DNA of 64,000 nt from an uncultured Acidobacteriota bacterium (lineage in GTDB: Bacteria; Acidobacteriota; Terriglobia; UBA7540): contig CAWDSK010000005.1 in assembly GCA_963804995.1 (NCBI GenBank), forward strand, positions 64,001 through 128,000, written 5' to 3'. This document shows, piece by piece, positions 13,935 to 25,095 of the stretch. The notes beneath the pieces are model-generated. The model did no database searches, had not been told where the DNA came from, and worked only from the letters and a program-made list of their open reading frames with translations. Position numbers and translations under genes: made by a program. Each line of letters begins with the position of its first letter. The first letter of the stretch is position 1.

Positions 13935-14348
13935 ATGTTGAGTTTGGAAGGAAGACGGCGAGCGAAGGACCATCTAAGCCTGGCTCGCGGTTTCATGGAC
14001 ACGGCGAAAGTAGGGCGTGCATCTTCTGAGTGCGATATTCGCAACGCCTTTTCCCGCGCCTACTATGCCCTGTTTCACGCGTGTTATGCATTGCTGCTGG
14101 GCCAGGGTAACGAGCCGGACTTGGTGCAACAGATTGCCAGGGATCATGGCCGCTTGCAGTCGAAGGTACGGCATCCCATGGGAAGGCCGTTTGAACACTA
14201 TGTAAGGGAAGCCTACGACCGGCGGCGGCAGTCTGACTACGAACCTGATTGGCCTGTGCCGTCGGCCACGGTTGCGCAAGAGGAGCTGAAGCGGGCAAGA
14301 GAGCAGTTCTATTGGGTTTTTCACACGACTCTGCGAAGTTTGGTGTAG
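13935..14348 (+). CDS. HEPN domain protein (UPF0332-like)
   Basis: NAFSRAYYALFHA, DHGRL, AYDRRRQSDY. Confidence 0.8.
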   Translation: MLSLEGRRRAKDHLSLARGFMDTAKVGRASSECDIRNAFSRAYYALFHACYALLLGQGNEPDLVQQIARDHGRLQSKVRHPMGRPFEHYVREAYDRRRQSDYEPDWPVPSATVAQEELKRAREQFYWVFHTTLRSLV

Positions 14349-14369
14349 TCACTGCGCTTGGAATTTGCC

Positions 14370-15242
14370 ATGACCGTCATTGATCTGGAACAATCCGTTC
14401 GTGGCGCGCTGCAAGAGGCGGGGCTCCTGCAGCTTCTGGATGAGGGTCAGACACAGTTCCTGGAGTTTCCGGACGGTTGGTTTGCCGAGATTGTTGTCAA
14501 AGACGGTTCCCGGCTGGCGGAGGTGGAGAAGGTTGTTGAAAGATACAAGGAGCGTCTGCGGCGCAATGATGATGGCGAACTTGATGAAATTGTCCGGCCC
14601 ATCTGGAGGATTGCAAAGATTGAACGCGTGGGGCCAAGTGTCAGCCTTCCGGCACTGGAATCGGCCATCCGTTTTAGGGTTGTGCTCCAGTCTGGGGACC
14701 TAAGCTGCGATGTTAAGGTCGACTTTACCGAGGGCGCGCTCAAGTTGATGCGCAAGAAACTGCGCGAGACGAAAGCGCCCGAAGATATGGCCTTAACAGA
14801 GATTGTCCATGAGTTCATGAGCCTGCAGTTAGCCCAGGGCGGGAAGAGTTTCTGGGATCCGCGCCGCGATTCGCGCCTCGAACTTGATGCGGGTGCTTTC
14901 ATGGCCCTGATGGGTCGCTGGGATTCGGTCGAGCACCTTAAGGCGTCCATCGACGCTGTTTTCAAGGCTCCTGAACCTATGACGACCATTCGTAACTTCC
15001 TGACGTTGGTATCGATGGGAGGTAGAAAGGCCCGCGATTTTGAAAGCGTGCTGGTTGATTTGCCGGGTCCGGGCGGCGCATTTCGTCCCGGCGACAAGCT
15101 GCCCACCAGCAACCACGAGTTGTACTCAACCCTCCTCGATTCCGAACGTGAGGTCTTGAGAAGGTATTATTGGGACCATCTTGAAAGAGCCAAAACTGAA
15201 TTTCCAGAGTTGAAGGAGCAATTTCCCAACGTGTTGAACTAG
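14370..15242 (+). CDS. Hypothetical protein, probably co-transcribed with the HEPN gene
   Basis: ~290-aa ORF with globular composition filling the gap to tuf; alternative start 14358. Confidence 0.7.
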   Translation: MTVIDLEQSVRGALQEAGLLQLLDEGQTQFLEFPDGWFAEIVVKDGSRLAEVEKVVERYKERLRRNDDGELDEIVRPIWRIAKIERVGPSVSLPALESAIRFRVVLQSGDLSCDVKVDFTEGALKLMRKKLRETKAPEDMALTEIVHEFMSLQLAQGGKSFWDPRRDSRLELDAGAFMALMGRWDSVEHLKASIDAVFKAPEPMTTIRNFLTLVSMGGRKARDFESVLVDLPGPGGAFRPGDKLPTSNHELYSTLLDSEREVLRRYYWDHLERAKTEFPELKEQFPNVLN

Positions 15243-20436: not shown

Positions 20437-23400
20437 ATGCCTAACGGCGGGAACGGCGCTGTCCGTCAGCGTATTAATTTCTCCAAAATTCCAACCGTCA
20501 TTAAAATCCCCAATCTGATTGAGGTCCAACGGCGCTCGTACGAACGCTTTTTGCAGATGAACCTCCTTCCCTCGGAACGGGAGGATGTGGGCCTGCAAGC
20601 CGTCTTCAACTCGGTTTTCCCGATCACGGACTTCCGCGGCATCGCGCAATTGGACTTCGTGGATTACTCCATCGGCAATTGGGAGTGCAAGTGCGGAAGC
20701 CTGAAGGGGCTCCACCACCTGCGCAGCACTTGTAAGAACTGCGGGCACACGGTTATTACCGATCCCTTCAAGGTGGGCGACGTCCTCTGCACGAAATGCG
20801 GAACGTTCAATAAGAACGTGGTGACGTTCTGTAACAAGTGCGGCGACCCGGTGGCTCTGCAGTTGAAATACGACGTTACGGAATGCCAGGAGCGCGGCAT
20901 GACCTTTGCGGCGCCCCTCAAGGTCACCATCCGCCTTACCCTGTACGACAAGGATGCGGATACCGGCCACAAGAACATCCGCGACATCAAGGAACAGGAA
21001 GTTTACTTTGGTGAAATCCCCTTGATGACGGAGAACGGCACGTTTATCATCAACGGCACGGAGCGTGTCATCGTCAGCCAGCTCCACCGTTCGCCGGGCG
21101 TTTTCTTTGAATCCAGCGCGCAGAAGACTTACTTCCTCGGCAAGATCATCCCTTACCGGGGCTCGTGGGTGGAATTCGAATACGACACCAAGAACCTTCT
21201 CTACGTGCGCATTGACCGGAAACGCAAATTTCTGGCCACCATTTTCCTGCGCGCTCTGGGATTGAAGAACGATTCCGAAATCCTCAAGACCTTTTACCAG
21301 GTCGAGAAGATTTCGCTTAAAGACCGCAAGCTCTTCATGGAGCCTTCGGAAGGCTTGGTCGGGAACAGAATTTCCAAGGATATCAACCATCCGCGCACCC
21401 ACGAGACCCTGGCGCATGCCGGAAAGAAGATCACCGCCGCGGTCTTCAAGGAAATCCAGAAGGCCAAAGTCGCACAGGTGGAAGTGGCATCGCATGATCT
21501 GGAGGGAGCCTTCGCCGCCACGGACATCGTTGATCCCTCGACCGGCGAGGTCCTGCTCGAATCCAACAGCGAAATCACCTCCACCGCCTTGAACAGCATC
21601 CTGGATTCGCAGATTACGGAACTGCAAGTGTTCTTCCCGGAGCGCGACGACACGGGCGTGACGATCGGCCAGACCTTGAAGCGCGACACCTTGAAGACCT
21701 CCCAGGAAGCGCTGATTGAAATGTATCGCAAGATGCGGCCGGGCGACCCGCCGACGCTGGACACCGCAACCTCCCTCTTCAACGGGATGTTCTTCGATCC
21801 ACGCAAGTACGATTTCTCCCGGGTCGGCAGGTTGAAATTCAACATCAAGCTTGGGTATTACACCAAGCTCAAGAATCGGCTGGATGATAAGGCAACGGAA
21901 TTTGAGCTGGAAGAGTCCCGGAACTTTCCGCGCGCCAATTTTTACGTGATCGTGGACGAAGAGAAGATGTTCGTGGGAAAGCGCGAAGGGAACATCTGCT
22001 CTGAGGTCGTGCGCGCCTGCGAAGGCACGCTGGCCACCGACCACTCGGAACACTCCCCGGTGCAATTGCCGCTCAACAAGCGGACGCTGGAGCCGGAGGA
22101 TTTCTACGCGGCCATCCGCTACTTGCTGGTGCTTCGCAAAAACCCCGGCGGGATTTACTCCGTCGATGACATCGACCATTTGGGGAATCGCCGCGTGCGC
22201 GCGGTGGGCGAACTGCTTGAGAATCAGTTCCGCCTGGGCCTGGTGCGCATGGAACGGGCAATCAAAGAGAAGATGTCGGTTTACCAGGAAATGTCAACCG
22301 CCATGCCGCATGATCTGATCAATGCCAAGCCGGTTATGGCGGCTATCCGTGAGTTCTTCGGTTCTTCGCAGCTCTCCCAGTTCATGGATCAGACGAACCC
22401 GCTCTCCGAGATTACCCACAAGCGGCGCCTTTCAGCGCTTGGACCGGGTGGGCTTTCGCGCGAGCGCGCGGGATTCGAAGTGCGTGACGTGCACCCCACG
22501 CATTACGGCCGTATCTGCCCCATCGAGACGCCGGAAGGCCCGAACATCGGCCTGATTTCTTCCCTCTCTTGCTACGCTCGCATTAACGAGTACGGGTTCA
22601 TCGAAAGCCCCTATCGCAAAGTCCGCGGAGGGCGCGTGGTGGATTACGTCACCGTTACGCACGGCGGAGACGGTGAGTGGAAAGTCGGAGAGCACCTGGA
22701 ATCGAGCCAGGTGGAGAAGGCCAACGACGAACTGCGCGAGAAGAAGCGCAAGCTGGTGGAGCATGAGCCTTACTCGTTCTACCAGTCGGCGTGGGAAGAA
22801 GACCAATATGTGATCGCGCAGGCAAACGTCACCATCGACAACAAGGGCCGCATCGTTCACGAATTGGTGAACGCGCGGCAGGCCGGCAACTTTGTGCTCA
22901 AGCGTCGCGATGAGATTGATTACATCAACGTCAGCCCCAAGCAACTGGTTAGCGTGGCAGCATCGCTGATTCCGTTCCTTGAGAACGACGACGCCAACCG
23001 CGCGTTGATGGGTTCCAACATGCAGCGGCAATCGGTTCCCTTGCTGCGCGCCCAGGCGCCCCTGGTGGGCACGGGGATGGAAGAAGTCACGGCGCGCGAC
23101 TCCGGCGCCGTAGTCCTCTGCAAACGCAACGGCGTGGTGGATAGCGTGGATAGCGAGCGCATCATCGTGCGCGTGGAAGGCGACGGTCACAGCGGCCAGC
23201 TTTCCCGCGAAGTGGGCGCAGATATCTACCAGCTCATCAAGTTCCGCCGCTCGAACCAGAACACCTGCATTAACCAGAAGCCCATCGTCCACAAGGGGCA
23301 GCGGGTTCATGCCGGGCAGGTTCTGGCGGATGGTCCCTGCACGGACCGCGGCGAGCTGGCCCTGGGCCGCAACGTGCTGGTGGCCTTCATGCCCTGGCGC

Positions 23401-25095
23401 GGTTACAACTTTGAAGACGCCATCCTGGTCAGCGAAAAGCTGGTGAAAGAGGATTCCTATACCTCCATCCACATCGAGGAATTCGAAATCGAATCCCGCG
23501 ACACCAAGCTCGGACCCGAGGAAATCACGCGCGACATTCCGAATGTATCGGAGTCTTTGCTGAAAGACCTGGATGAGAGCGGCGTCATCCGCATCGGCGC
23601 TTACGTGAAGCCGGGCGACATCCTGGTGGGGAAGGTTACGCCCAAGGGTGAGACGCAGCTGACGCCGGAAGAGAAACTCTTGCGCGCGATCTTCGGCGAA
23701 AAGGCCGGCGATGTCCGGGACGCGTCACTCACGTGCCCTCCGGGAATTGAAGGCATTGTGGTGGACGTAAAAATCTTCTCCCGCAAGGGCACGGAAAAGG
23801 ACGAACGAGCCAAGTCTATTGAGGGCTCGCAGGTGGGTCGCCTGGAGAAAAACCTCAACGATGAAATCCGCATTCTTCAGGACGAACGCTTGAAGCGCCT
23901 CTGCGCGTTGCTGGAAGATGAGGAACTTCAGGCCGACCTGCACGATGAGAAGACTAACAAACGCCTGGTCGCCAAGGGCACCAAGCTTACGCGCGATGTG
24001 CTGGCGCGGATCTCAACGCGCAATCTGAAGCGCATGAGAATTGGCAAGAAGGACCCGACTCTCGTCGAAAAAATCGATGAGATCGAAGAGATGACTTCGC
24101 GCCAGATCGACATCCTGCGCAAAATCACCGATGAGAAGATCCAGAAGCTGAAGAAAGGCGATGAGCTTCCGCCCGGAGTCATCAAGCTGGTCAAAGTCTA
24201 TATCGCCATGAAGAGGAAGCTTTCCGTAGGCGATAAGATGGCCGGCCGGCATGGAAACAAGGGCGTCATCGCGCGCATCCTGCCGGAAGAAGATATGCCT
24301 TATATGCCGGATGGAACCCCCGTGGAGGTTGTGCTGAATCCCCTGGGCGTCCCTTCGCGTATGAACGTGGGGCAAATTCTGGAAACCCACCTGGGATGGG
24401 CGGCGCGGGAACTGGGGAATAAGATTCGCCAGCTCTTTACGGTGGAAGCCCGTGCGGAAATCCTGCGCAAGGAGATGAAAGGTTACTTCCGTAACAACGC
24501 CATGGCGGCGACCGTGGAGAATATGGACGACGAGCAGGTCATCGACTACGCACACGCCATGGTGGAGGGGATTCCCTTTTCCACCCCAGTGTTCGACGGC
24601 GCGACGGAACGGGAAATCAAGGAATACCTGGAAAAGGCGGGTCTGCCTTTGTCCGGCAAGATCAATCTTTTCGACGGCATGACGGGCGAGGGGTTCGAGC
24701 AGCCGGTGACGGTGGGGTACATCTACATGCTCAAGCTCTCCCACCTGGTGGACGATAAGATCCACGCTCGGTCGATTGGCCCCTACTCTCTCATTACCCA
24801 ACAACCTCTCGGAGGAAAGGCCCAATTCGGAGGGCAACGGTTCGGCGAAATGGAAGTGTGGGCCCTGGAAGCTTACGGTGCGGCCTACATCCTGCAAGAA
24901 TTGCTGACGGCGAAATCCGACGACGTTTACGGCCGCGCCAAGATTTACGAAGCCATCGTCAAAGGCGAGGCCGCCATTGAACCCGGCGTGCCTGAGTCGT
25001 TCAACGTGCTGGTGCGGGAGCTGCAAAGCCTCTGCCTCGACGTGGAACTGATCAAGAAGCCCAAGGAGCAACTCGCCCCTGTGGGCGCTGAGTAG
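20437..25095 (+). CDS. rpoB: RNA polymerase beta subunit with lineage-specific insertions
   Basis: [34 protein letters not shown]. Confidence 0.99.

What the first reader, a model, noticed from the sequence alone, without database searches (positions are those of the whole stretch)
21856..22068. RpoB carries a 71-aa in-frame insertion resembling a phage-structural beta module
Seen: between conserved GRLKFNIKL and KRTLEPEDF lies [71 protein letters not shown], where most RpoBs have only a short linker. From memory, its pattern (T-L...T-x-x-x-x-x-S-x-x-FP...I-x-D-x-E-x-M...GN...V-x-R-x-x-x-GT-x-A-x-x-H...V) matches a module common in phage tail/structural and surface proteins, not the sandwich-barrel hybrid motifs usual in RNAP inserts. 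No intein termini are visible. Inference: a domain captured into core RNA polymerase, possibly a new lineage-specific insertion and taxonomic marker.
Basis: partly seen in the sequence, partly recalled or inferred. Interest (0 to 1): 0.78.

Follow-up and report, generated by a model that had tools for sequence, protein, structure and literature searches.

The report
Phage-tail barrel fixed in RNA polymerase
One whole order of uncultured soil Acidobacteria carries, inside the beta subunit of its RNA polymerase, a small folded domain of a kind otherwise found in phage tails and cell-surface proteins, a donor not seen in the insertion survey I could read; what it does there is untested.

Summary
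Real, and the phage-module reading holds. RpoB (window 20437-25095) has 71 residues (net +68) where other Terriglobia have a three-residue linker. The site is the beta-lobe loop that carries the Firmicutes beta-i5 insert.

The insert is not BEAN/BBM, not SBHM and not an intein. It is a six-stranded beta-barrel (pLDDT 97), homologous by sequence and fold to the N-terminal domain of phage GP4 tail fibre (Z 11.3, 1.2 A) and to barrels of the JBD30 and Chi tail-tip proteins. The same module recurs in giant surface proteins.

It is present in 117 of the 119 order genomes with a match (two contigs end at the site). It was not found in RpoB of other orders sampled. It arose once, is length-invariant (98 of 98), is under purifying selection (dN/dS about 0.1) and has been recharged (30% against 12% charged residues).

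Most likely it is a captured virion-type domain, fixed as a structural surface appendage beside beta-i4. A docking role is the rival. The donor could also be a cellular surface protein.

Earlier scan notes report other foreign domains in RpoB, none of this family. The classic catalogues (Lane and Darst 2010, Iyer 2004) were not read.

The parts
20437..25095 (+). rpoB, 1552 aa, host gene of the insert, in the ordinary tuf-nusG-rplKAJL-rpoBC cluster
21856..22068 (+). 71-aa six-stranded beta-barrel of the phage tail-fibre / tail-tip type, inserted in the beta2 lobe (RpoB 474-544); family core P25, E36, R53, T58, H63
21805..21855 (+). conserved upstream anchor of the insertion site (aligns to B. 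subtilis beta up to about residue 281 and E. coli beta up to residue 409)
22069..22185 (+). conserved downstream anchor (resumed lobe helix up to DDIDHL; aligns to B. subtilis beta from residue 374)
21292..21696 (+). beta-i4 (SI1, BEAN/BBM2 type) insert of the same lobe, with an intact helicase-interaction motif; used as positive control
   Evidence: Z 13.1 to E. coli lobe 7EGS; motif in 89 of 98

Best explanation
A virion-type beta-barrel was captured once and domesticated as a structural surface appendage of RNA polymerase. Step 1 (shown): the insert belongs to a mobile 70-residue barrel family found in phage tail fibres, tail-tip proteins and cell-surface proteins. Step 2 (single origin shown by trees; mechanism inferred): in the ancestor of this Terriglobia order an in-frame recombination put about 204 bases of such a gene, most likely a (pro)phage tail-fibre-type gene, into the permissive beta-i5 loop of the beta2 lobe. 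It was tolerated because the barrel folds on its own and, by inference from its topology and its internal insertions in other proteins, has its two ends close together. Step 3 (shown): it was fixed; the fold core stayed, and the Thr/Ser/Ala surface was replaced by Lys/Arg/Glu/Asp, as suits a cytoplasmic protein. Step 4 (inferred): it now sits on the outside of the lobe near beta-i4, takes no part in catalysis, and is kept mainly because it must fold and because its hinge and lobe-facing surface have co-adapted with the lobe; deleting it should leave basic transcription intact, with at most conditional defects, as reported for E. coli beta-i4.
For: Homology: (profile hits to 8JOV E 2.7e-6 and 4.8e-10, 8RK3 E 4.3e-7, 8VJH E 2e-7). 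Fold. Site: and PMC11515920 Table 1. One origin: RpoB tree without the loop, 24 insert-bearing rows in one group, SH-aLRT 98; module tree, 28 RpoB rows in one group, 99, inside a 96-supported group with 24 other modules, mostly N-terminal ones of short proteins. Constraint like that of a neighbouring accessory domain: mean pairwise identity 72% against 66% for beta-i4, 83% for beta-i9, 98% for core; dN/dS 0.095 against 0.056 and 0.003 in the flanks. Invariant residues are mostly those of the donor family (E36 139 of 139, R53 138 of 139, H63 137 of 139 non-RpoB modules). Charged residues 30% against 12%. The known docking function of this region (helicase motif) is kept in beta-i4, and no TGE occurs in the insert (0 of 98).
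Against: No length change in 98 of 98 RpoBs and RpoB-specific conserved polar residues (Q70 28 of 28, E65 26 of 28, K/R at positions 6 and 42 in 27 of 28; rare in the 139 other modules, though the end columns are often gapped there) fit a binding surface as well. No loss was seen in the order, which mere tolerance does not require. The position of the barrel on the lobe was not determined (lobe model pTM 0.43). No near donor was found (best 52% identity over 46 residues), the module tree has only 72 columns and is a quick search, and the comparison set was itself chosen by likeness to the insert.
Confidence: 0.55

Rival explanations
1. The barrel has become a docking platform for an order-specific transcription or repair factor, as the Bacillus insert at the same site docks the PcrA helicase.
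For: Same site as beta-i5, which binds PcrA (PMC8318588, passages read). RpoB-specific conserved polar residues in both families and invariant length. In virions the barrel makes protein contacts (JBD30 hub domain VI contacts domain VII; PMC11445458 passage).
Against: Overall conservation is close to that of beta-i4 and below beta-i9; the two families differ at many surface positions (35-44% identity to the window copy); the helicase motif is absent from the insert and present in beta-i4; no candidate partner was identified.
Confidence: 0.3
2. The barrel was kept as a steric shield or decoy against phage proteins that attack the beta lobe.
For: T4 Alc resistance mutations map to the E. coli beta2 lobe (R368, P372; PMC2939025 section read); the insert lies about 40 residues downstream of these, at E. 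coli position 410.
Against: An arms-race surface should vary fast; this one is under purifying selection with no indels. Nearness in space to the Alc site was not shown, and no phage of this order was examined.
Confidence: 0.08
3. On origin only: the donor was a cellular secreted or surface protein, not a phage gene.
For: The module is repeated in giant RTX/cadherin, FG-GAP and Tad-like proteins and occurs in chromosomal Terriglobia proteins of other orders.
Against: The RpoB copies group with mostly N-terminal modules of short proteins, not with the surface repeats or the other Terriglobia copies; that subtype occurs on viral contigs in a tail gene block (L198, E 1.1e-12; 5 of 55 viral loci hit, 0 in the reversed control).
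Confidence: 0.25
4. The segment is an intein, an intron or an assembly chimera.
For: In-frame insertion in a conserved housekeeping gene.
Against: Present in 117 genomes of 119 with a match, protein-level purifying selection, no intein termini, fold of a virion barrel, no Rfam family over it.
Confidence: 0.01

Closest known systems
Firmicutes beta-i5 (beta-In5, SI1 of B. subtilis; type 3 BEAN insertion of PMC11515920)
   Same: Same loop in the C-terminal half of the beta2 lobe (B. subtilis about 282-373 by flank alignment; O. iheyensis 286-370 in Table 1 of PMC11515920); lineage-restricted, inherited vertically.
   Different: Different fold (all-beta closed barrel against the alpha/beta BEAN), no TGE motif, 71 against about 90 residues, order-level instead of phylum-level, and it coexists with an intact beta-i4 in the same lobe.
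N-terminal domain of phage GP4 putative tail fibre (PDB 8JOV chain 1, residues 10-90)
   Same: Best structural match, Z 11.3, rmsd 1.2 A over 70 residues, 21% identity; profile hit E 2.7e-6 to 4.8e-10.
   Different: N-terminal domain of a virion fibre present in 18 chains; in RpoB it is internal, single, lacks the helix that follows, and is charged.
Six-stranded barrel of siphophage tail-tip/hub proteins (JBD30 8RK3 residues 480-555, which I take to be hub domain VI of PMC11445458; Chi 8VJH)
   Same: Z 10.5 and 10.1; E, RG-T and H motif aligned by profile, E 4.3e-7 and 2e-7; an internal domain there too.
   Different: Structural role in the virion tip; 17-20% identity.
HABAS / SBHM insertions of beta and beta-prime
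   Same: All-beta accessory domains of similar size inserted in RNA polymerase.
   Different: Open four-stranded sheet with GD box (PMC11515920); no profile similarity to this genome's beta-prime i6 (probability 0.2%).

Membership tests
Lineage-specific insertion at the beta-i5 site | Lies between the YDxxxVGRxKxNxKL helix and the helix before DDIDHLG in the beta2 lobe | tested here: met
Lineage-specific insertion at the beta-i5 site | Confined to one clade and inherited with rpoB | tested here: met
BEAN / BBM domain | Two helix-strand-strand brackets (alpha/beta fold) | tested here: not met
   model has seven listed strands and no helix of 4 or more residues, pLDDT 97
BEAN / BBM domain | Profile similarity (HHalign above 70%) and TGD/E motif | tested here: not met
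   0.7% against this order's own beta-i4 alignment; TGE in 0 of 98 inserts. Not compared with a Firmicutes beta-i5 profile.
BEAN / BBM domain | Structural match to solved BEAN domains | tested here: inconclusive
   fold lists show only the top 50 rows; the beta-i4 part of the same model did match 7EGS, 6J9E and MoeA
HABAS / SBHM domain | Sequence similarity to SBHM repeats, GD box | tested here: inconclusive
   0.2% against a single sequence, this genome's beta-prime i6, a weak test; no Pfam match at E 1
HABAS / SBHM domain | Open four-stranded sheet | tested here: not met
   whole model superposes on six-stranded barrels at 1.2-1.7 A over 69-70 residues
Intein | Cys/Ser at position 1, His-Asn end, Cys/Ser/Thr at +1, HINT fold, about 130 residues or more (features recalled) | tested here: not met
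   starts with Y, H, Q or S, ends VQL then Pro, 71 residues, other fold
Virion six-stranded barrel (GP4 fibre N-terminus, JBD30 and Chi tip proteins; no Pfam name found) | Sequence homology with the P...E...RG..GT....H pattern | tested here: met
Virion six-stranded barrel (GP4 fibre N-terminus, JBD30 and Chi tip proteins; no Pfam name found) | Same fold over the whole domain | tested here: met
   (predicted model; the first used an alignment that included non-RpoB rows, the second RpoB rows only)
Virion six-stranded barrel (GP4 fibre N-terminus, JBD30 and Chi tip proteins; no Pfam name found) | Assembly or attachment role in a virion or at the cell surface | not testable with these tools
   host protein is cytoplasmic; the role must differ

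The most novel reading that the evidence does not exclude
A phage structural domain was domesticated inside core bacterial RNA polymerase late in evolution, at the origin of an abundant soil order, and now serves as an order-specific docking or shielding surface on the beta lobe. That would be a virus-to-host gift to the central transcription machine and a counter-example to the view that RNA polymerase stopped taking up domains early and drew them from two folds.
Probability: 0.28. Interest if true: 0.85.

Novelty: new variant of a known kind. Interest (0 to 1): 0.63.

Why it matters
The 2024 survey of RNA polymerase insertions (PMC11515920) assigns most lineage-specific beta insertions to the BEAN domain and argues that insertion tapered off after early bacterial evolution; its main text has no occurrence of 'phage'. 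Here an unrelated, virion-type domain entered a known hot spot at the base of one order and was kept. It gives a near-binary marker for that order, a natural experiment on what the beta lobe tolerates, and a testable case of a phage-type module in an essential host enzyme. The barrel family itself is widespread and had no Pfam or fitting NCBIfam model in my scans. If the domain proves passive, the interest is evolutionary and taxonomic.

Tried and rejected
Pfam on the insert: no family; NCBIfam on 19 modules: only two unrelated single weak hits. Single-sequence PDB search: 0 hits at E 10. Foldseek PDB gave no match at E 0.001 or better; best 8JOV at 2.2e-3. No RNA polymerase chain appears among the 50 rows listed for the insert model; this is a cut list, not an exclusion. 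F1-ATPase, EF-Tu domain II and P22 I-domain barrels match at Z 4.7-6.3 and were treated as a common fold only. Second copy of the module in the own genome: none by two searches (genome 92% complete). Viral contigs with the insert as sole query: none; P0155 as query: none; two alignment queries could not be run for lack of a conserved stretch. Lobe model from 49 close RpoBs: insert and beta-i4 confident, lobe core under pLDDT 50, placement not usable. Complex prediction of insert against lobe pieces: no verdict. Repeats around the junctions: only short two-copy matches, taken as chance. The RNA 'joint' skipping the insert has 145 other letters between and unlike ends: read as an insert-less rpoB of another organism, not splicing. 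C48/C55 as a metal site: rejected, both are absent in the second family. P0135 dropped as a low-complexity false hit. G088's second, insert-less rpoB groups with another family: read as contamination. Atlas hits: unnamed, largely viral clusters at 0.93-0.95; named ones under 0.9, leads only. The A1002 paper (PMC13730344, section 11 and passages) concerns a different GP4 fibre (8JOU) and was not used. Lane and Darst 2010 was not held; Iyer 2004 was not looked up.

Full report
The observation. Window 21856-22068 reads in frame as the 71 residues quoted, residues 474-544 of a 1552-aa RpoB at 20437-25095 in the usual tuf-nusG-rplKAJL-rpoBC cluster. Pfam covers both sides and nothing in the insert. 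Between the anchors GR.K.N.K. and DDIDHL there are 103-104 residues in all 123 stored proteins that have both anchors (these were found through the insert, so this shows constancy of site, not distribution), against 33-36 in 16 of 17 RpoBs from outside the order and 58 in one. The 71 residues replace three, a net gain of 68.

Distribution. Of 137 genomes of the order, 119 gave a match to the 180-aa region and 18 gave none. In 117 of the 119 the match runs continuously across the insert; the contigs of G012 and G143 end inside or at the site. Both families have it. G088 also holds an insert-less rpoB, which groups with another family at support 100 and is read as contamination. With a profile of 28 RpoB inserts, 401 class genomes gave 68 of 72 and 4 of 4 in the two families of the order at E 1e-28 or better, and 23 of 324 elsewhere at E 2.5e-8 or weaker. 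I cut out 18 of those weak loci, from 18 of the 23 genomes; none is RpoB: by my reading of the frames they are secreted proteins, prophage tail-like proteins, a sheath-like pair and hydrolase-like proteins. The five genomes not cut out have open frames of 179-1296 aa. In 400 phylum genomes, 3 matched at E 1e-5, best 7.4e-6; one of them was checked and has a short loop in RpoB. These are samples: not found in those searched. A pattern scan of the species collection returned 78 loci, all titled Terriglobia, Terriglobales or Acidobacteria/Acidobacteriota, from metagenome bins by their titles; two are labelled gp13. The order is therefore probably subdivision 13; the GTDB name UBA7540 is recalled, not from a call. 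An RpoB tree with the loop removed puts 24 insert-bearing rows on one branch (SH-aLRT 98, quick search, 42 rows; L121 of the 43 chosen gave no row).

What the insert is. A phmmer search of 1.84 billion representatives gave 45 proteins at E 0.001: three RpoB fragments, one low-complexity repeat that I dropped, and 41 others at 29-52% identity over the matched parts. They are short proteins with the module at the N-terminus, or large proteins with tandem copies, some with RTX, cadherin, FG-GAP or Tad domains (43 of the 44 new proteins scanned). Of 37 non-RpoB proteins scanned against PHROGs, 25 match tail or virion-structural families at E 1e-6; these matches run mostly through the module itself, so they place the module in tail families but do not prove that each protein is viral. 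The insert alone hits a tail-fibre PHROG at 9.8e-5; 18 of 28 inserts do so at E 0.01. RpoB-only against non-RpoB-only profiles align over 69 columns without gaps at probability 99.5%. Profiles reach solved structures by sequence: GP4 tail fibre 8JOV (E 2.7e-6, and 4.8e-10 with the non-RpoB profile), JBD30 8RK3 and Chi 8VJH (E 4.3e-7, 2e-7). AlphaFold gives an all-beta model at pLDDT 97. Against 48,161 solved chains the six rows at Z 8 or more are all phage virion proteins: 8JOV 11.3 (1.2 A, 70 residues), 9IN6 10.6, 8RK3 10.5, 8VJH 10.1, 9N71 8.8, 8GTC 8.0. BFVD gives 75 matches at E 0.001, TM up to 0.95. The JBD30 paper describes a small six-stranded barrel, domain VI of the hub protein, that contacts domain VII (PMC11445458, passages); that this is the matched stretch is my inference. 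A second model, from RpoB rows only, folds the insert the same way in context: its insert part again matches the virion chains, while its beta-i4 part matches the E. coli lobe (7EGS, Z 13.1) and MoeA. That serves as an internal control.

The site. Flank alignments to solved subunits put the insert after E. coli beta 409 and in place of B. subtilis beta about 282-373, the beta-i5 or type 3 BEAN position (PMC11515920 Table 1; PMC7749167 passages call the beta2 lobe a hot spot for insertions). The insert is not BEAN: no helices, 0.7% against this order's beta-i4 profile, no TGE in 98 of 98. Against the genome's own beta-prime i6 the probability is 0.2% (one sequence, weak test). The helicase-interaction motif that B. 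subtilis carries in beta-i5 (PMC8318588, passages) is present here in beta-i4 in 89 of 98 RpoBs, so the barrel did not replace it.

Origin. In a 72-column quick tree of 28 RpoB and 139 other modules, the RpoB rows form one group (99) inside a group (96) with 24 modules, mostly N-terminal ones of short proteins, apart from the surface repeats and from the other Terriglobia copies. The careful search did not finish, composition differs, and the set was chosen by likeness, so this is suggestive. The RpoB-only profile hits 5 of 55 viral loci fetched with two such proteins, and 0 in reversed frames; the best (L198, E 1.1e-12) lies between a long NlpC/P60-bearing gene that looks like a tape measure and a LamG-bearing gene, near an amidase. 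Direction is inferred from the wide, diverse family outside against one shallow clade inside RpoB. No second copy is in the own genome, and codon-position GC matches the flanks (GC3 0.75 against 0.79-0.80), as expected for an old event.

Constraint. Over 87 pairs from 77 sequences (pairs not independent), dN/dS is 0.095 in the insert, 0.056 upstream, 0.003 downstream. In 98 full-length RpoBs the insert is always 71 residues, mean identity 72%, against 66% for beta-i4, 83% for beta-i9, 55% for the beta-i11 region, 98% for core. The invariant E36, R53, H63 and P25 are the family's own core. Charged residues rise from 12% to 30% and Thr/Ser/Ala/Gly fall from 47% to 25%. A few polar positions are conserved only in RpoB copies (K/R6, K/R42, E65, Q70); several lie near the ends of the insert and so probably near the hinge.

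How it most likely works. I put 0.55 on a structural surface appendage next to beta-i4, with no part in catalysis, kept by folding and co-adapted hinge contacts; E. coli beta-i4 is the precedent for mild in vitro and conditional in vivo defects on deletion (PMC2939025, section 12 and passages read). I put 0.30 on a docking platform and 0.08 on an anti-phage shield. Nearness to beta-i4 rests on PMC8318588, which says the two SI1 motifs occupy a broadly similar space; my own models did not place the domain. Separately, a phage donor is about 0.7 against 0.25 for a cellular surface protein.

Novelty. In PMC11515920 (parts 1, 2 and 4 of 6 and passages read; one supplementary file searched, with no occurrence of Acidobacteria, and its tables may not be in that file) lineage-specific beta insertions are mostly BEAN, 'phage' does not occur in the main text, and insertion is said to have ceased in late-diverging groups. 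Literature searches (listings only, apart from the papers named) showed no report of this insert. Lane and Darst 2010 was not held and Iyer 2004 was not looked up, so the classic catalogues are unchecked; since all named carriers are metagenome bins, they are unlikely to list it (inference). The scan's own index holds no look-alike of the insert but several other foreign domains in RpoB (unchecked notes), which suggests that late captures are not unique. Verdict: a new variant of a known kind, at a known site with a donor class not found in what I could read. Interest 0.63.

Noticed in passing
window 20680-20844 (+), RpoB 82-136: Eight-cysteine zinc-ribbon-like insert near the RpoB N-terminus; present in all 8 loci checked, inside and outside the order, 91% mean identity in the order. 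Earlier scan notes describe similar modules in Dependentiae.
   Followed up: partly
protein P0133 (622-base contig): RpoB fragment with the second half of the barrel followed by a downstream flank like that of family f6 (L197), which lacks the insert; ends in an unrelated tail. Probably an assembly chimera; a transfer of the insert into another order is not excluded.
   Followed up: no
protein P0085: About 790 residues of insert-bearing RpoB fused to a topoisomerase I of very different composition; likely a mis-assembly.
   Followed up: partly
L191 (G032, family f6): An unrelated 25-residue expansion in the same loop (spacing 58 against 33), showing that the site is permissive in this class.
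   Followed up: no
L082:3275-5620, L087:3557-5902, L091:3459-6191, L093:3308-6217, L095:3092-7697: The same barrel sits internally in propeller-like, hydrolase-like and tail-sheath-like proteins of other Terriglobia (host labels from my reading of the sequences): a promiscuous insertion module without a Pfam model.
   Followed up: partly
   Followed up: partly
window 13935-15242 (+): A HEPN-domain gene (E 3.9e-6) and a 294-aa gene without Pfam match directly upstream of tuf.
   Followed up: partly
G060:C14:139456-139975: rpoB match in two pieces just downstream of the insert: probably a frameshift error in the assembly.
   Followed up: no
G088:C153 (L051): Second rpoB without the insert that groups with family f10: a contaminating contig, which the marker detects.
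   Followed up: yes
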